Below are positions 168 through 62,950 of a stretch of 64,000 nucleotides of DNA, piece by piece. Under the pieces are notes generated by a model, which saw nothing but the letters and a program-made list of their open reading frames with translations, was not told where the DNA came from and searched no databases. Positions within the stretch are counted from its first letter, which is position 1; each line of letters opens with the position of its first letter. The DNA comes from a virus (Duplodnaviria; Heunggongvirae; Uroviricota; Caudoviricetes). The stretch lies in IMG/VR virus record IMGVR_UViG_2681813318_000003; one strand, given 5' to 3'. The position numbers were made by a program, and so were the translations under genes.

Positions 168-914
168 TTAATCTGCGGGGTTAATCGTTACTGATTTAGT
201 TGCCTTCTTACCACCGCTATTGCTGGTGAAGGAGATATTTGTAGAACCCTGCGCCACACCACGTACCAGACCCGTTTGATCTACCGTGGCCTTTTCCTGG
301 TCTTCGGATTCCCAAACACCGGTTTTGTCTGCGGCATCAGCTGGAGTGATTTCGGCTGTCAGTTGCACAGTTTCTCCAGCTTTTACGGTTGGAGATTCCG
401 GTGCGATCGACACAGTTTTTACCGGTTTAGGGCCGCTCATTCTTCCCAGAACGCCTTCGTCATCAGGGTATGCGCTGAACTGAACAGAGAACACACGAAC
501 ATCATCAGACTGGTAGGTCATAGTGAAGTTGCCCGCGGTTGCCGCTTTCGGGATGGTCAACACATAGTCGGTGGTGTCCTGCGGAGTCAGAACCAGCTCC
601 TTCGCCACATCAATCAGGTTAACGCCCTGTGCAGATGTGATCGTGACAGAGTTGTCATCTTCGCTCAGAGTAGAACCAGGCATCAGGTCAACCATGTTTT
701 GGAGTACAGACTCAGCCAGAGGCGCGGTGATGGTAATGTTGCGCCCCTGAACTAATTCGGAAATTACGGTCTGCCCCAACTGATCGACGGTGACTTTCAG
801 CGTTTCAGTGGCTACTTCAACCTGAACACCACCTTTGGTGTAACCCAAATCCACACCACCAAACGACACCTTACAGGCACCAAGTTTGATGTTTTTTACA
901 TGGGTATTAGACAT
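168..914 (-). CDS. Major tail protein with C-terminal Ig-like (Big_2-type) domain
   Basis: ORF 168..950; probable start ATG at 914 preceded by AAGGAG. N-terminal tube-like region plus C-terminal Ig-like repeat, same architecture as lambda gpV-type tail proteins. Last gene of the virion operon inside the window. Confidence 0.55.
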   Translation of the reverse strand: MSNTHVKNIKLGACKVSFGGVDLGYTKGGVQVEVATETLKVTVDQLGQTVISELVQGRNITITAPLAESVLQNMVDLMPGSTLSEDDNSVTITSAQGVNLIDVAKELVLTPQDTTDYVLTIPKAATAGNFTMTYQSDDVRVFSVQFSAYPDDEGVLGRMSGPKPVKTVSIAPESPTVKAGETVQLTAEITPADAADKTGVWESEDQEKATVDQTGLVRGVAQGSTNISFTSNSGGKKATKSVTINPAD

Positions 915-19028: not shown

Positions 19029-19378
19029 GATTAATTCCTTATCGTAAATAACAAATTGTTTTCTTGTTGGTGTTAATTATCGTTGTACGAATAAGGCGTC
19101 AAAGTGGAAAGTTGCGGTAGCCGGACGGGAACAGGTGTGTTTGTCGGTTGCCTGGAGGTAAGAGGTTGGTGTTTTTAGCCTGCGGGAAACAGGATGGTCA
19201 TTTAAGACCACCAATGGTGATGGCCTTAATAATTATCGCCCGATTACGCTAAGGATCTTTTCCTCAACTGATTTGTTGTTGCGACTAAACTGCCTTGCGT
19301 ATCTGATGACAGCAGAGGCGTTTTGCTTTCTGACCATCTCGGCTCTTTCCTTCTGGCGTTTCTTGAAATCGCCCATAT

Positions 19379-28207: not shown

Positions 28208-28236
28208 AAAGCCCAGTTGACTAGGCTGGGCTTTTT
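28206..28236. terminator. Bidirectional rho-independent terminator
   Basis: AAAAAGCCCAGTTGACTAGGCTGGGCTTTTT. Confidence 0.6.
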
Positions 28237-28271
28237 AAAAGGAAACAGAGTTTGCGCCTCTGTTCCTGAGC

Positions 28272-28572
28272 CATAAGTATCTGGCGACTGAGCTAAGATT
28301 AACCGAATGTACTGGATTCATCAAGAAACGTTGAGCCGTCATGCTAGGTAATAATGACCATTTACCAAACATCGTTGTTCTCAAAGAAGATTTAAGTCCA
28401 GGTTTTTGGTGACTCTAAAACCTTACCTTAACTCGAAATCGTGCCGTAAGTATCTGGCGACTACAGATATTGCAACTGCAAAGGCAAGCTCAAAGGTATT
28501 TGCAGCTAGGTGCGATAAAACTAAGTGAGGCCTATAGTGCTTAACTTACTTTTCAAAATCGTGCCGCCTATG
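28272..28572. repeat. Two tandem imperfect repeat units in a non-coding region
   Basis: Both units begin with TAAGTATCTGGCGACT (28276 and 28449) and end with AAATCGTGCCG (28437 and 28555); no ORF. Confidence 0.45.
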
Positions 28573-28630
28573 TTCGCAATCATCGAAGCGATCATTGAGT
28601 ACGTCAACCAGCGCCCATAATGCTAGTTGT

Positions 28631-28660
28631 TACCGGCCCCATCCAAATGGGGCCATTTTA
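28631..28660 (+). terminator. Rho-independent terminator
   Basis: CCGGCCCCATCCAAATGGGGCC followed by ATTTTATT. Confidence 0.55.
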
Positions 28661-28669
28661 TTGTATTGA

Positions 28670-37138: not shown

Positions 37139-37732
37139 TTACCACTTGTTGTAAATAAAACCAATGTCTTTCTTGTGAGGCGTATCGGCTGCGGAAAAAG
37201 CTGCGATCTTCGCGAGTCGATCACATATTTCATTTTCACGATGCCCGGCGTGACCTTTAACCCACTTCCAGCGAACATTATGTCGACTTGCGGCCTCATC
37301 CAGACGTTTCCACAGATCAACATTCTTTACCGGTTTTTTATCAGAAGTCATCCATCCATTACGTTTCCACCATTTCATCCACTGTGTCATGCCGTTTTTC
37401 AGATACTGGCTATCAGAGTACAAAATAACGTTGCATGGATATTTCAAACGCTCCAGCCCGATAAGTGCGCCCATCATCTCCATGCGGTTATTGGTGGTGC
37501 TATGAAAACCATCTGAGAACTCGCGTTCCTCACCACGATACTGGAGAACGATACCGTAACCGCCCGGGCCACCCGGATTTTTAAGGCAAGAGCCATCACT
37601 AAAGATTTTCACGGTTTTGAGCTGGGGATTGAACTCTACGACAGGCGTTGTGGGATTGGTGCGGGGAGAATTTTTGTTTTTGTCTTTTTTGCGAGTTTTT
37701 GCTTGCGATCGGGCTGGTGTCTTCGTCGTCAT
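37139..37732 (-). CDS. Ribonuclease HI with basic N-terminal extension
   Basis: [58 protein letters not shown] align to E. coli RnhA catalytic motifs; start at ATG 37732 with SD CAGGAG. Confidence 0.85.
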
Positions 37733-38316
37733 ATAAACTCCTGAATCAATCGCCGCGCCGATTTTTTTTCCTCGCGCGTGCGCACACGCGTGCGTGTTAA
37801 TAATTATTAAAATAAACAAATTACTTCCCAGAACAGGTTTTTATAAACCTGAACTGAACGAACGAAGTGAGTGAAGTTCACCTCGAACGAAGTGAGAGGT
37901 TGTCTTTTCAGGTAATACTCTCCCAGGGAGGTGAGTATAAAATTCCTCACCAACCTGGTCGTTTCATAACCTGAAAAGCTATGGTCTAAGTCTACTGCCA
38001 GCTTAGACTTGGGAAGTTATGGATGACAGCACCCCAGAACCGAGATCTTCCCACACTTTATGAAGGGGAGTACTGGATTCAACCTCTCGAAACACCCCAG
38101 ACTCGACAATCATAAAGTGACCCTTGTCTCTGCTCACTTTGGTTCCCCCTTCCCCGACACCTATACGGCACCGGTTCTACGCTGGTAGTGAGCTTTTTTA
38201 AACCTGACGCCAGTGACGCTTACCCCCACCCATCAGGTCGAGCCTCCAGTCTACGACTGGAAACTATCATATCTTAGCACTTACAATTCACTTTATGAAT
38301 AGTTTGTACTTATCTA
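37733..38316. other. About 580-bp non-coding region with multiple inverted repeats (candidate structured RNA or cis element)
   Basis: No ORF; alternating GC tract CGCGCGTGCGCACACGCGTGCG, GAACGAAGTGAG direct repeats, CTCCCAGGGAG and TAAGTCTA..TAGACTT palindromes. Confidence 0.3.
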
Positions 38317-38547
38317 TCATTGTGATTGATTATTTTCTCGACCATGTAGTTGAACATTCAAGGCAAACACCTCATTGATCAACTCACCTAAAAGCTGTTC
38401 AACAAGTTCGCGATGCTCGCCAAGATGCAAGCACTTAATTGCCCACTCGTACAAGTTGAAAGCCTGCTCACGATCTTTCATCATTTCACGAGCCTGGGCC
38501 AGAAAATCGCTCTCTACGAGCGCAACGACATTAGTCGGGTATGACAT
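38317..38547 (-). CDS. Hypothetical small protein
   Basis: ORF 38317..38571 trimmed to ATG 38547 (MSYPTNV) with SD AAGGA. Confidence 0.35.
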   Translation of the reverse strand: MSYPTNVVALVESDFLAQAREMMKDREQAFNLYEWAIKCLHLGEHRELVEQLLGELINEVFALNVQLHGRENNQSQ

Positions 38548-38653
38548 GTTGGTTTCCTTAAAGTGGTTCATAAAATCGATTTTAAAGCGTCTGGGAAGGG
38601 GTTCTAGTGGATTCTGTAGTGATGTTCAGGTCTGGAGTCTCTGATACAAAACA

Positions 38654-48844: not shown

Positions 48845-48917
48845 GTATCACCAAATAAAGAGGGCCACTAAATATAGTGGCCCATGTTAATAGATAAGCA
48901 CTTACCTATCAACGAGA

Positions 48918-56257: not shown

Positions 56258-56792
56258 TATGCTGTCAGCGGTGAAATGTATGCTATCAGCGGCTATTTTT
56301 CTGAAAAGTATGCTGTGAACGGTTAAAGATATGCTACCAGCGGTATAGTGAGATAAACGTATGCTGTGAGCGGTAAATCATCTATCACCACTCAATGCTC
56401 TGGCATACCTCCCCAGTGGTTACTAACCTCGAAGAGTGCATTCCATATAGGTTTGCGCTCACTAACATTCTATTGCCGTTGCGCTGATTGCTTGTAGTGA
56501 AAGGCATTTATTGCCTGCTGCTCCCTGATAGAACGTATGCTGTCAGCGGTGTTTTATTGAGGAATTTTTGTTTGGATATGCTATCAGCGGTAATTAATGG
56601 TATATGTCAGACCTTCGTATGCTGCCAGCGGTAATTTTGTTCTGGTTATAACCATACCGGTACACATTATTCATGCAATGTCTTAAGTATGCTGTCAGCG
56701 GTAAAAAATCGAGTAAAGTATGCTGTGAGCGGTGAGATAAACTCTCGATATGCTATCAGCGGTAATTGATTGTGTATGCTGTCAGCGGTGAC
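56258..56792 (+). repeat. Downstream iteron arrays (incA-like), about 12 copies
   Basis: 19-bp units (G)TATGCTGTCAGCGGT(A/G)A at about 56258, 56279, 56308, 56329, 56359, then after a 150-bp spacer at 56535, 56576, 56617, 56687, 56718, 56748, 56774; irregular spacing. Confidence 0.8.
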
Positions 56793-56836
56793 GACTATGA
56801 AATATGACTGCGGCACGTGCCGCAGTCAGTTTGCAT

Positions 56837-61921: not shown

Positions 61922-62950
61922 TTACAGAGAGTCCAGCTCTCTCAGTAGGTCATCCAGACCTTCATCTTCCGTCGCAGATGCGGTTGCTACAGATGTCGCT
62001 GCGACTGCTTCAGACTCTTTGACTGATACGGCAACGGCAGCGGAACTTGCCTCTGGTTTAAATTCAGTTTCAACGGCACGGAGGATTTCTTCATCAACCA
62101 GACTGGTTGGTTCAGAAGCCGGTGTGTGCGCGGTTGCTACAGCCGTCGCTCCTTCTGTATGACCAGTGACAGAGCCAAATCCAGGTAGTGCCGCAGCCGA
62201 TGTTTTCGCGGTTGAGGAAATTGCTGGTGCAGATGCTGCGGCAGTTGGTGCAGCGATGCCAATCAGACGACCCATAGTGCGAACTGTCGACAGAAGACGA
62301 GTTTCATCAGCCTGATTTGCGTATGCGATCAGATCATGCTGAGTGTTCCAGAATTTATCTTCGATATCGCCTTTGTAGACTTTACGCTTAGGCGAGACGT
62401 CATATTTGGTATCGCGACCAGAGCCAGTACGTTTAATCAGGAATGCGTAGCCTTCCTCTTTGCTCAGTGGATTGCCGATATCATCAGCGATGTCTTCGGT
62501 GATTGCTTTGCAGATATCATCGAATACAGTAGACGGCAGCTCGATTAACTGGCATTTCTCAGCATCTGCGAAATCCTCACGAGCAGAAAGAATGCCGTTG
62601 ACCAGGTAGCGAGGAGTGGCACGCATTTGACCGATGCGTTCTTCCATTGCTTTGTTACCCTTGTGACGAGCGCGACCTTCCATCACCATTTCGCATAGCT
62701 GACAAGCGCGACCGTGAGTATGTTGCTCACAAATATAAGCGTTGGTTGCTTCTTTACCTTCCTCGTTCTGATACTTAACGTAGTGCATACCGAAAGTCTG
62801 GAAGAACTTACCGTTTGGGTCGTCTTTATTCGGGAAGATGCGGATATAGTTGACGCCGTCTTTTAAGCGAGTCAGATCAACGTTGTTACCACGTTTGGCG
62901 GCAATGTCTTCACGAGTTTTGTTAAGCAAATCAAGTAATGTCTTAGACAT
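61922..62950 (-). CDS. Single-stranded DNA-binding protein (T4 gp32-like, tentative)
   Basis: Cys/His cluster YICEQHTHGRACQLCE, Ala/Ser-rich linker, acidic C-terminal tail DEGLDDLLRELDSL; sits with recombinase and FEN genes. Confidence 0.5.
   Translation of the reverse strand: MSKTLLDLLNKTREDIAAKRGNNVDLTRLKDGVNYIRIFPNKDDPNGKFFQTFGMHYVKYQNEEGKEATNAYICEQHTHGRACQLCEMVMEGRARHKGNKAMEERIGQMRATPRYLVNGILSAREDFADAEKCQLIELPSTVFDDICKAITEDIADDIGNPLSKEEGYAFLIKRTGSGRDTKYDVSPKRKVYKGDIEDKFWNTQHDLIAYANQADETRLLSTVRTMGRLIGIAAPTAAASAPAISSTAKTSAAALPGFGSVTGHTEGATAVATAHTPASEPTSLVDEEILRAVETEFKPEASSAAVAVSVKESEAVAATSVATASATEDEGLDDLLRELDSL

What the first reader, a model, noticed from the sequence alone, without database searches (positions are those of the whole stretch)
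37733..38316. About 580-bp non-coding gap with dense inverted repeats between RNase H and the next gene
In a tightly packed genome this is the longest gene-free gap after the GT-rich tract. It contains an alternating purine-pyrimidine GC tract, short direct repeats and several hairpins, suggesting a structured RNA or a cis-acting DNA site.
Basis: seen in the sequence. Interest (0 to 1): 0.4.

Follow-up and report, generated by a model that had tools for sequence, protein, structure and literature searches.

The report
Unannotated large structured RNA gene in phage-plasmid
The "empty" 580-bp gap next to the RNase H gene of this SSU5/pHCM2-type phage-plasmid encodes a roughly 450-nucleotide, highly folded non-coding RNA that matches no described RNA family, is conserved better than the neighbouring genes, and whose function is still unknown.

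Summary
Window 37733-38316 has no credible ORF, holds the window's only long alternating purine-pyrimidine run, a 13-nt direct repeat and many hairpins.

The window is an SSU5/pHCM2-type phage-plasmid. The gap core (about 37820-38243) is 94-99% identical among relatives whose flanking genes are only 60-80% identical. It occurs in 687 PLSDB plasmids and 232 of 5426 complete E. coli genomes, and no feature was annotated under it in the listed RefSeq hits.

Diverged lineages show strong covariation: 29 of 94 pairs change on both sides (0 of 500 shuffles reach this), with 98.6% of cells paired. Wobble pairs fit only the minus strand (150 G.U against 3 A.C).

A positionally conserved sigma-70 promoter with an extended -10 sits just after the upstream 76-aa ORF. 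A 5' hairpin follows, then about ten hairpin domains. Two of them are twin hairpins with the same apical sequence, which explains the direct repeat.

A sister clade carries a second, non-alignable structured RNA in the same slot, with its own promoter and intrinsic terminator. Rfam gives no match and no literature was found.

Best reading: a new, independently transcribed, trans-acting structured ncRNA. Its function is inferred only. Rivals are a giant rnhA leader and an R-loop primer.

The parts
37815..38265 (-). Predicted structured ncRNA ('type A'), about 450 nt. The 5' end is inferred from the promoter; the 3' end is inferred from where conservation drops and a U-rich tail begins.
   Evidence: 94-99% conserved core against 60-80% for the flanks. 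Covariation on alignment A3. Wobble pairs fit the minus strand only. No Rfam match.
38271..38299 (-). Sigma-70-type promoter: -35 TTCATA (38299-38294), 17-nt spacer, TGc, -10 TAAGAT (38276-38271). Predicted transcription start about 38265-38263.
   Evidence: The same layout occurs at the same position in all clades. The scan tool calls it in SSU5 (TTTAAA-17-TAAAAT with TG) and in type B (TTTACT-17-TATGAT). The window version scores 8 of 12, below the tool's threshold.
38299..38317 (-). Degenerate copy (ATAGATAAGTACAAACTAT) of the dispersed palindrome ATAGGTAAGTACTTACCTAT. It abuts the -35 and overlaps the stop codon of the 76-aa ORF. Putative operator or activator site.
   Evidence: The core GGTAAGTACTTACC is perfect at this spot in SSU5, pHCM2 and the Enterobacter plasmid. 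The window holds 11 copies against 1.4 expected. Other clades carry clade-specific inverted repeats at the same spot.
38246..38260 (-). P1: 5'-terminal hairpin CCAGUC-GUA-GACUGG.
   Evidence: The sequence is completely different in each clade, but it is a hairpin at the same distance from the -10 in most clades; none could be identified in the diverged L206-L210 clade.
38201..38239 (-). P2: long hairpin with a G-rich apical part (GAUGGGUGGGGGUAAGCGUCACUGGCGUC) and a conserved U.G pair.
   Evidence: Compensatory changes occur in the Klebsiella, Buttiauxella, L206 and L216 lineages.
38132..38193 (-). P3 domain: closing helix GCUCAC/GUGAGC around an inner hairpin and the invariant GGGGAAGGGGGAACCAAAG.
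   Evidence: Three pairs carry double changes and there are U.G intermediates.
38054..38119 (-). P4 domain: CACUUUAUGA/UCAUAAAGUG closing helix, an inner helix GAGUCUGG/CCAG(U)ACUC, and an apical AGAGGUUG.
   Evidence: Three compensatory changes in Buttiauxella. Five pairs with double changes on A3.
38010..38053 (-). P5: UGGGAAG/CUUCCCA helix with a 30-nt conserved loop (GAUCUCGGUUCUGGGGU) and an inner helix GGGUG/CAUCC.
   Evidence: Three pairs with double changes in the outer helix and two in the inner helix, 100% paired. This refutes the long-range pairing with 37829-37822 that alifold proposed.
37984..38008 (-). P6: GUCUAAG/CUUAGAC hairpin with loop CUGGCAGUAG.
   Evidence: Five pairs with double changes. 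The helix is valid in all sequences only when read on the minus strand.
37904..37978 (-). P7: long three-tier hairpin (CUUUUCAGGU/ACCUGAAAAG; CCAGG/CCUGG; GGUGAG/CUCACC).
   Evidence: Double changes occur, and whole base pairs are inserted or deleted together in L216 and L206.
37850..37899 (-). P8 and P9: twin hairpins that both display UCACUUCGUUC (apical AC-UUC-GU).
   Evidence: The P9 stem has 3 pairs with double changes. In L216 the P9 stem changes again and the apical A-U becomes G-C.
37815..37849 (-). P10 small hairpin (GGUUU/AAACC), conserved CUGGGAAGUAA, then a U-rich tail. The 3' end is uncertain and there is no canonical terminator.
   Evidence: Conservation ends at about 37820. No terminator was called here. 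In the Klebsiella clade one pair of this hairpin fits the plus strand better.
37733..37814 (-). rnhA leader outside the RNA core: AT-rich spacer, 25-nt alternating Pu/Py tract (37773-37797), GC hairpin with an A8 loop (37751-37778), and Shine-Dalgarno AGGAG (37742-37738).
   Evidence: The tract and hairpin are also present in SSU5 and in L216. This region is less conserved and carries indels.
38317..38547 (-). Upstream 76-aa ORF (84 aa if the ATG at 38571 is used). It accompanies the RNA slot in both type A and type B loci. Function unknown.
   Evidence: No Pfam hit. The family is restricted to these phage-plasmids. The AF2 model is a three-helix fold with pLDDT 79. No PDB fold match.
37139..37732 (-). 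Downstream RNase HI gene (rnhA). It is a neighbour, not an obligatory partner.
   Evidence: Pfam RNase_H, E = 1.2e-45. It is replaced by other genes in Buttiauxella and Citrobacter plasmids that keep the RNA.

Best explanation
The gap is a gene for a roughly 450-nt, multi-hairpin non-coding RNA. It is transcribed from the minus strand, in the same sense as the surrounding early/replication genes of an SSU5/pHCM2-type phage-plasmid.

Shown:
- The sequence is under much stronger constraint than its neighbours.
- It folds into at least nine helical domains supported by compensatory substitutions.
- The wobble pattern fits the minus strand.

Inferred from sequence:
- It has its own sigma-70 promoter with an extended -10, immediately after the stop codon of a 76-aa ORF.
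- That promoter sits next to a palindrome that recurs at about ten other intergenic positions, mostly 13-50 nt upstream of minus-strand start codons, in the same genome. The RNA would then belong to a co-regulated early gene set.
- The transcript begins with a protective 5' hairpin.

Inferred, weakest step:
- The RNA acts in trans as a discrete molecule, presenting invariant loops to a protein or RNA partner. The most notable loops are two adjacent hairpins with the same apical sequence UCACUUCGUUC.
- A sister clade carries a different structured RNA in the same slot, so the RNA may carry lineage-specific recognition, for example in replication control, immunity or incompatibility.
For: - Identity and spread: the element is in 687 PLSDB plasmids, 12 phage records and 232 of 5426 complete E. 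coli genomes, and the listed hits there carry no annotated feature under it.
- Conservation: the core is 94-99% identical against 60-80% for the flanking genes.
- Covariation on A3: 94 pairs, 98.6% of cells paired, 29 pairs changed on both sides. No shuffle out of 500 reaches this, and slid controls give 3-5. Adding the intermediate lineage L216 gives 30 of 92 pairs and 98.9% canonical.
- Strand: 150 G.U cells against 3 A.C cells. In 29 pairs Watson-Crick alternates with G.U, against 2 pairs where it alternates with A.C. The P6 helix is valid only on the minus strand.
- Promoter: it is positionally conserved and is called by the scan tool in SSU5 and in type B.
- Independence from rnhA: the RNA is retained where rnhA is replaced and where no co-oriented downstream gene exists.
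- Type B: it occupies the same slot, has its own promoter, a 5' hairpin, covarying helices and a strong intrinsic terminator, so it is a discrete transcription unit in the gene direction.
- Not coding: ORFs are under 50 aa and a 1-nt deletion segregates within the largest of them.
Against: - No expression data exist. The promoter, transcription start and 3' end are predictions.
- The window's own promoter is weak by consensus (8 of 12) and was not called by the scan tool.
- No canonical terminator was found for type A. The RNA could therefore continue into rnhA as a leader.
- No complementary target of 13 nt or more was found anywhere in a complete relative genome. No partner protein is identified.
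- The structure was derived from the same alignments on which the pairs were counted, which inflates the percentage paired.
- Divergence comes from a few lineages: five near-identical sequences in the L206-L210 clade, plus single sequences for Buttiauxella and L216.
- One 3' hairpin pair in the Klebsiella clade fits the plus strand better.
Confidence: 0.6

Rival explanations
1. The RNA is not an independent gene. It is a giant structured 5' leader (an attenuator or riboswitch-like sensor) that controls read-through into rnhA and the genes behind it.
For: - No promoter-like site was found between the RNA core and the rnhA start, so rnhA is probably transcribed through the element.
- In type B a strong intrinsic terminator sits about 100 nt before rnhA, with no palindrome or promoter in between. 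This is the classic attenuator layout.
- A conserved GC hairpin lies directly before the rnhA Shine-Dalgarno sequence.
Against: - The element is kept at about 87% identity, with compensatory changes, in a Buttiauxella plasmid where the downstream genes are convergent (AAA ATPase and UvrD helicase), and in a Citrobacter plasmid with a different downstream gene.
- Conservation stops about 80 nt before the start codon, and the intervening spacer is indel-rich.
- No alternative terminator/antiterminator pairing was found in type A.
Confidence: 0.2
2. The transcript is a ColE1 RNA II-like pre-primer. It would form an R-loop at an adjacent origin, possibly the lytic origin, and be processed by the phage-plasmid's own RNase HI.
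For: - It lies immediately upstream of rnhA, inside the replication and nucleotide-metabolism module.
- The transcript is G-rich with many G-runs: plus-strand GC skew is -0.18 to -0.31 over 38000-38300.
- An AT-rich tract and a Z-DNA-prone GC tract follow its 3' end.
- Near-total sequence conservation, including in stems, would fit a combined RNA and DNA constraint.
Against: - The element is retained where rnhA is lost.
- The type B RNA ends in a strong intrinsic terminator.
- No promoter for an antisense RNA I-like transcript was found over the RNA body.
- The adjacent small protein gave no significant match to any solved structure, so a Rop-like fold is unsupported.
- There is no inflection of cumulative GC skew at the locus.
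- These plasmids are typed as IncFIB replicons, and the replicon gene was not located here.
Confidence: 0.1
3. It is a phage-plasmid immunity antisense RNA of the P1 c4 / P4 CI / N15 CA kind. Its repeated loops would pair with repeated target sites in an mRNA such as an antirepressor operon.
For: - The host element is a phage-plasmid.
- Two loops carry an identical 11-nt sequence.
- Different clades carry different RNA versions and different promoter-proximal palindromes, a heteroimmunity-like pattern.
- In SSU5 and pHCM2 an antirepressor/Rha gene lies three genes downstream on the same strand.
Against: - No complementary site was found in the window or in the rest of a complete 98%-identical genome. 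The best is an 11-mer with one mismatch, at chance frequency.
- The conserved unit is about 450 nt, several times larger than the c4 and CI RNAs as I recall them.
- The antirepressor gene is absent at that position in the window's own clade.
Confidence: 0.08
4. It is a purely DNA-level cis site (origin, pac or recombination site) or a missed small protein gene.
For: Both strands fold better than shuffles. A palindrome and a Z-DNA-prone tract lie at the edges.
Against: - G.U-specific, strand-asymmetric covariation is not expected for DNA sites.
- There are no iterons or tandem repeats.
- ORFs are under 50 aa and a 1-nt deletion segregates within the largest of them.
Confidence: 0.02

Closest known systems
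GOLLD, ROOL and OLE-type large structured ncRNAs of unknown or poorly known function (Rfam families; the properties cited are from my own knowledge)
   Same: They are large (over 400 nt), intricately folded, supported by covariation rather than by experiment, often carried by phages or prophages, and have no obvious target.
   Different: There is no sequence or structure match in Rfam 15. This RNA has a string-of-hairpins architecture without a demonstrated long-range closing helix. No tRNA genes are nearby. It was found only in Enterobacterales phage-plasmids.
P1 c4, P4 CI and N15 CA immunity RNAs (from my own knowledge)
   Same: They are RNA genes of phage-plasmids or satellites. They use repeated recognition sequences, have lineage-specific variants, and are expressed from the early region.
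   Different: Those RNAs are about 70-200 nt and pair with repeated sites in the same operon. Here the conserved unit is about 450 nt and no complementary target exists in the genome.
ColE1 RNA II / RNA I / Rop replication control (from my own knowledge)
   Same: RNA II is a structured transcript of about 500 nt with 5' stem-loops and G-rich segments, functionally linked to RNase H. A small helical protein gene lies nearby.
   Different: No antisense promoter was found. The adjacent small protein shows no Rop-like fold match. The RNA is kept without rnhA. The sister-clade RNA is terminated before rnhA.
Mu Mor/C-type or P1 C1-type dispersed regulatory sites (analogy for the palindrome at the promoter; from my own knowledge)
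   Same: A short dyad-symmetric site recurs at many intergenic positions of one phage genome, and one copy lies just upstream of the -35 of the RNA promoter.
   Different: The binding protein is unknown. Some copies lie only 13-14 nt before a start codon, which does not fit a simple promoter-proximal site.

Membership tests
Any Rfam 15 family (4227 covariance models, including tRNA, tmRNA, 6S, RNase P, introns, riboswitches, GOLLD, ROOL, OLE and RNAI) | Score at or above the family gathering threshold | tested here: not met
   There were 0 hits in the whole window at gathering thresholds. In the gap only chance-level hits appeared (E of 0.1 or more, bit scores far below gathering, e.g. an HCV stem-loop and miRNAs). 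Type B also gave none. ARAGORN found 0 tRNA or tmRNA genes.
ColE1-type RNA II/RNA I replicon | Antisense RNA I promoter opposite the 5' part of the pre-primer | tested here: not met
   The only plus-strand promoter-like sites point away from the RNA body (38258-38287 and further right). None lies over 37815-38265.
ColE1-type RNA II/RNA I replicon | Dependence on RNase H processing at an origin immediately downstream | tested here: inconclusive
   rnhA is adjacent in most relatives, but the RNA persists where rnhA is replaced. There is no GC-skew inflection. Cleavage and R-loop formation cannot be tested in silico.
ColE1-type RNA II/RNA I replicon | Rop-like helical-hairpin dimer protein | tested here: not met
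   The AF2 model of the adjacent 76-aa protein (pLDDT 79) gives no PDB match with E below 3.9.
P1 c4 / P4 CI-type immunity RNA | Repeated sequences complementary to sites in a target transcript of the same element | tested here: not met
   There is no complementarity of 13 nt or more in the window or in the remaining 44 kb of the 98%-identical phage PhiR41_1. The loop complement GAACGAAGTGA occurs only within the element itself.
P1 c4 / P4 CI-type immunity RNA | Small processed RNA of about 70-80 nt upstream of an antirepressor operon | tested here: not met
   About 450 nt are conserved as a unit. The antirepressor/Rha gene is downstream in SSU5 and pHCM2 but absent in the window's clade. Processing cannot be tested here.
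Transcription-attenuating leader or riboswitch | Lies in the 5' UTR of the regulated gene, with an intrinsic terminator as expression platform | tested here: inconclusive
   Type B has a strong terminator before rnhA. Type A has none by scan. The element survives without a co-oriented downstream gene.
Protein-coding gene | A conserved open reading frame | tested here: not met
   The longest ORFs are 48, 44 and 42 aa. A 1-nt deletion carried by 11 of 61 sequences falls inside the 44-aa ORF. Substitutions are compensatory in helices.
Independent structured ncRNA gene (generic) | Covariation-supported secondary structure | tested here: met
   29 of 94 pairs carry changes on both sides, 0 of 500 shuffles reach this, and slid controls give 3-5.
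Independent structured ncRNA gene (generic) | Own promoter and a defined 3' end | tested here: inconclusive
   The promoter is positionally conserved and is called by the tool in two clades. A terminator is clear only in type B. No transcript data are available.

The most novel reading that the evidence does not exclude
SSU5/pHCM2-type phage-plasmids carry, at a fixed locus, a previously undescribed class of large (about 450 nt) structured RNA. Two RNAs that cannot be aligned to each other (types A and B) occupy this locus in different lineages, and type A itself splits into diverged sub-lineages. The version present changes together with a lineage-specific palindromic regulatory site. The RNA would then be the specificity determinant of a new RNA-based control circuit for replication, immunity or incompatibility, or alternatively a large RNA-protein or RNA-only assembly comparable to ROOL and GOLLD.
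Probability: 0.25. Interest if true: 0.8.

Novelty: categorically new. Interest (0 to 1): 0.65.

Why it matters
- **Prevalence.** SSU5/pHCM2-type phage-plasmids are common in clinical Enterobacteriaceae. The element is in 687 PLSDB plasmids and in 4% of complete E. coli genomes.
- **Strength of constraint.** This RNA is the most conserved stretch of the 1.7 kb compared around it, more conserved than the flanking genes. Even so, no feature is annotated under it in the listed hits, and it is absent from Rfam and from the searchable literature.
- **Rarity of the class.** Bacterial and phage ncRNAs above 400 nt with dense covariation are rare. As I recall, each earlier example (OLE, GOLLD, ROOL, raiA) opened a line of work.
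- **Testable hypothesis.** The locus suggests lineage-specific function: two unrelated RNAs in one slot, twin identical hairpin tips, and promoter-adjacent palindromes that change with the lineage. This can be tested with available lysogens such as E. coli K-12 carrying PhiR41_1, LF82 carrying Cyrano, S. Typhi CT18 carrying pHCM2, and K. pneumoniae HS11286 carrying pKPHS1.
- **Practical uses.** The RNA sequence is a sensitive marker for typing these phage-plasmids, and it should be added to annotation pipelines.

Tried and rejected
- **Rfam.** Gathering thresholds on the whole window and E up to 10 on the gap gave only chance hits. Type B gave none either.
- **tRNA and tmRNA.** None found.
- **Antisense targets.** blastn-short of the element against the window and against the rest of the PhiR41_1 genome gave at most 12-nt exact matches, which is the chance level. 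A pair of 11-mers at window 442-485 lies inside a coding gene and was judged chance. The loop complement occurs only in the element.
- **Rop-like neighbour.** The AF2 model of the 76-aa protein has no PDB fold match and no Pfam hit.
- **Origin of replication.** No GC-skew inflection and no tandem repeats or iterons.
- **Type A to type B homology.** nhmmer --max found no similarity, and eye comparison found only short shared words. A covariance model of the full RNA exceeds the tool's size limit and was not built.
- **RNAalifold on the whole alignment.** It proposed a long-range helix, 38014-38007 with 37829-22. The diverged clade refutes this, because the local P5 helix covaries instead.
- **Literature.** Six searches (SSU5, pHCM2, phage-plasmid, ncRNA, sRNA, repressor, RNA-seq) found no description. 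The S. Typhi RNA-seq paper does not mention pHCM2. The LF82/Cyrano paper contains none of the RNA-related search terms (non-coding, ncRNA, sRNA, intergenic, RNase H, origin of replication). The 2026 heteroresistance preprint concerns another phage-plasmid family.
- **Locus L217.** It is a bisulfite-converted read assembly (all C read as T) and was discarded.
- **Moellerella relative.** It has a protein gene and a terminator in the slot and no recognisable RNA, so the slot is not universal beyond Enterobacteriaceae.
- **Record starts near the element.** Their number fits chance, by a rough estimate made without a tool, and was not taken as evidence for a pac site.
Full report
**1. Observation**

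All genes around the finding lie on the minus strand. rnhA runs 37139-37732, with its ATG at 37732-37730 and its Shine-Dalgarno AGGAG at 37742-37738. The upstream small ORF ends with a stop codon at 38319-38317.

- No ORF inside it exceeds 48 aa.
- It is the second-longest stretch of the window free of ORFs of 60 aa or more.
- The 25-nt alternating purine-pyrimidine run at 37773-37797 is the only run of 16 nt or more in 64 kb.
- A 13-nt exact direct repeat lies at 37859 and 37884, and there are 16 inverted-repeat pairs.
- Both strands fold better than dinucleotide shuffles, with z = -3.3 and -3.5 and 0 of 100 shuffles as stable.

**2. What the window is, and how the gap is conserved**

The region matches SSU5, pHCM2, pKPHS1 and related phage-plasmids. 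There are 12 phage records, 687 PLSDB plasmids (Klebsiella, Escherichia, Enterobacter, Salmonella, Citrobacter, Cronobacter and others) and 232 of 5426 complete E. coli genomes. No feature was annotated under the element in the listed RefSeq hits.

In an alignment with eight relatives, 50-nt windows of the flanking genes are 50-80% identical to the window sequence. Positions 37851-38150 are 94-99% identical. The block of high identity runs from about 37820 to 38243. For several Klebsiella records, megablast aligns only the gap and not the genes.

The element is kept where rnhA has been replaced. In Buttiauxella the replacement is a convergent AAA ATPase and UvrD helicase. In Citrobacter it is a different gene.

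**3. It is an RNA, made from the minus strand**

The main clade is too conserved to show much covariation. Even so, the Buttiauxella copy shows three double compensatory changes in one helix, 38119-38110 with 38063-38054.

More distant copies came from two searches seeded with the neighbouring 76-aa protein.
- IMG/VR loci L206-L210 have 61-64% protein identity and an nhmmer score of about 170, against about 540 for the main clade.
- Logan contig L216 is an intermediate lineage.

On the 11-sequence alignment A3, a domain-wise consensus structure of 94 pairs has 98.6% of cells paired. Twenty-nine pairs change on both sides, 0 of 500 shuffles reach this, and structures slid by 1-3 columns give 3-5. 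The covariation score is 0.362 against 0.224 for shuffles. Adding L216 gives 30 of 92 pairs and 98.9% canonical cells.

Within these helices Watson-Crick pairs alternate with G.U in 29 pairs and with A.C in only 2. There are 150 G.U cells against 3 A.C cells. Read on the plus strand, the same helices would be only 84% canonical. The best-supported helix, P6, has five pairs with double changes and is valid in every sequence only on the minus strand.

Two caveats apply. The structure was derived from the same alignments on which the pairs were counted. Also, the divergence comes from a handful of lineages.

**4. Transcription signals**

Directly after the stop codon of the 76-aa ORF, every type A clade has the same layout:
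- an inverted repeat;
- a -35-like hexamer (TTTAAA, TTCATA, TTTACT or TTTACC);
- a 17-nt spacer ending in TGn (16 nt in L216);
- a -10 (TAAAAT, TAAGAT or TAACAT);
- about 10 nt further on, a hairpin whose sequence differs completely between clades. No such hairpin could be identified in the L206-L210 clade.

The scan tool calls this promoter in SSU5. In the window it is TTCATA (38299-38294), a 17-nt spacer, TGc, then TAAGAT (38276-38271). That scores 8 of 12 and falls below the tool's threshold. The predicted start is about 38265-38263.

The 3' end is uncertain. Conservation stops at ...CUGGGAAGUAA (about 37820), followed by a U-rich tract. No canonical terminator is called.

**5. Anatomy (minus strand, 5' to 3')**

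| Domain | Coordinates | Notes |
|---|---|---|
| P1 | 38260-38246 | 5' hairpin |
| P2 | 38239-38201 | G-rich tip, conserved U.G pair |
| Linker | between P2 and P3 | A-rich, UUUAAAAAAG |
| P3 | 38193-38132 | contains invariant GGGGAAGGGGGAACCAAAG |
| P4 | 38119-38054 | closing helix, inner helix, apical AGAGGUUG |
| P5 | 38053-38010 | 30-nt conserved loop |
| P6 | 38008-37984 | loop CUGGCAGUAG |
| P7 | 37978-37904 | three tiers |
| P8 | 37899-37881 | twin hairpin |
| P9 | 37880-37850 | twin hairpin |
| P10 and tail | 37849-37815 | small hairpin, then U-rich tail |

In L216 the P9 stem is rewritten (GAGCU/AGCUC) and the apical A-U becomes G-C. The tips are therefore small AC-UUC-GU hairpin caps.

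The GC tract and the hairpin with the A8 loop (37751-37797) belong to the less conserved rnhA leader.

**6. The same slot in other lineages**

Thirty Klebsiella plasmids, including pCAV1099-111, have a 76-aa protein that is only about 50% identical. They carry a 570-650-bp gap between the same two genes with no detectable similarity to type A, even with nhmmer --max. This "type B" region has:
- a promoter, TTTACT-17-TATGAT;
- a covarying 5' hairpin and several covarying internal helices;
- a strong intrinsic terminator about 100 nt before rnhA;
- no Rfam match.

This independently shows a discrete, gene-sense RNA transcription unit at this locus. A Moellerella relative lacks a recognisable RNA there.

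**7. The palindrome next to the promoter**

In SSU5, pHCM2 and Enterobacter plasmids the inverted repeat is the perfect GGTAAGTACTTACC. In the window only a half-site is intact.

The motif, extended to ATAGGTAAGTACTTACCTAT, occurs 11 times in the window against 1.4 expected, and 0 of 100 shuffles reach this number. Ten of the 11 copies lie in intergenic positions; eight of them sit 13-50 nt upstream of a minus-strand start codon, those at 48893 and 53575 have none nearby, and the eleventh, at 62799, lies inside an ORF and is probably chance.

Other clades have their own inverted repeats at the same spot. In type B they occur at three syntenic places: before the Dam methylase gene, before the RNA, and after rnhA. 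The RNA thus appears to belong to a co-regulated gene set. The binding factor is unknown.

**8. What it is not**

- It is not in any Rfam family, and there are no tRNA or tmRNA genes.
- It is not coding.
- It has no antisense target in its own genome.
- There is no evidence for an origin.
- The neighbouring small protein has no Pfam hit and no significant match to any solved structure, so a Rop-like fold is unsupported.
- No literature description was found.

**9. Mechanism**

Shown: a strongly constrained, covariation-supported RNA fold read on the minus strand.

Inferred: its own promoter, a length of about 450 nt, and action as a discrete trans-acting molecule that presents invariant loops, especially the twin P8 and P9 tips, to a partner.

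The near-total conservation of stems as well as loops suggests many simultaneous contacts. These could be a compact tertiary fold, a protein complex, or a conserved host partner.

Rivals:
- a giant rnhA leader (0.2). rnhA seems to lack its own promoter and type B has an attenuator-like layout, but the RNA survives without rnhA;
- a ColE1-like pre-primer (0.1);
- a c4/CI-like immunity RNA (0.08);
- a DNA site or small protein gene (0.02).

**10. Verdict**

The element is best described as a new, unannotated family of large structured ncRNA of SSU5/pHCM2-type phage-plasmids, with a second, non-alignable class in the same slot in a sister clade. Function remains unknown and no transcript data were available.

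Noticed in passing
window 6459, 7966, 20313, 33072, 37126, 39341, 48893, 53575, 59518, 63038 (14-bp cores); degenerate copy at 38299-38317: A dispersed 20-bp palindrome, ATAGGTAAGTACTTACCTAT, occurs 11 times against 1.4 expected. Ten copies are intergenic, mostly 13-50 nt upstream of minus-strand start codons. It looks like a genome-wide operator or activator site of the phage-plasmid. Sister clades carry different palindromes at syntenic spots.
   Followed up: partly
L131:3226-3700 (pCAV1099-111), L132, L211-L213: A second, non-alignable structured RNA ('type B') sits in the same slot in 30 Klebsiella phage-plasmids. It has a promoter, a covarying 5' hairpin, several covarying helices, a 10-mer (AACCGUUAAA) repeated twice, and a strong intrinsic terminator. 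It has no Rfam match.
   Followed up: partly
window 37751-37797: A 25-nt perfectly alternating pyrimidine-purine tract, which is Z-DNA-prone, adjoins a GC hairpin whose loop is A8 on the minus strand and T8 on the plus strand. Both lie just upstream of the rnhA ribosome-binding site. They are also present in SSU5 and in the diverged L216 lineage, so they are probably functional, perhaps in rnhA control.
   Followed up: partly
L003:1-2400 (Buttiauxella), L007:1805-2284 (Citrobacter), L133:4649-6186 (Moellerella): The position just downstream of the RNA is a variable spot. rnhA is replaced by an AAA ATPase plus UvrD-helicase pair, by an unrelated ORF, or is followed by a type I restriction gene. 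This may be a hotspot for accessory or defence genes.
   Followed up: no
window 56258-56836, 28208-28669, 19029-19378: These are the other long stretches free of ORFs of 60 aa or more (579, 462 and 350 bp). They were not examined and could hold further non-coding elements.
   Followed up: no
L217 (Logan SRR8137545 contig): This public assembly contig carries the element with essentially every C read as T. It is a bisulfite-converted library assembled as if native and is an artefact to ignore. It shows that the protein collection contains such converted sequences.
   Followed up: yes
E. coli genome search: Two of the 234 matches in complete E. coli genomes are on chromosomes rather than plasmids. 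This suggests occasional integration of an SSU5-type phage-plasmid or of a fragment of one.
   Followed up: no
window 37139-37732: The phage-plasmid RNase HI carries a basic N-terminal extension of about 40 residues ([28 protein letters not shown]) ahead of the Pfam RNase_H domain, which spans residues 43-181 of the query.
   Followed up: no
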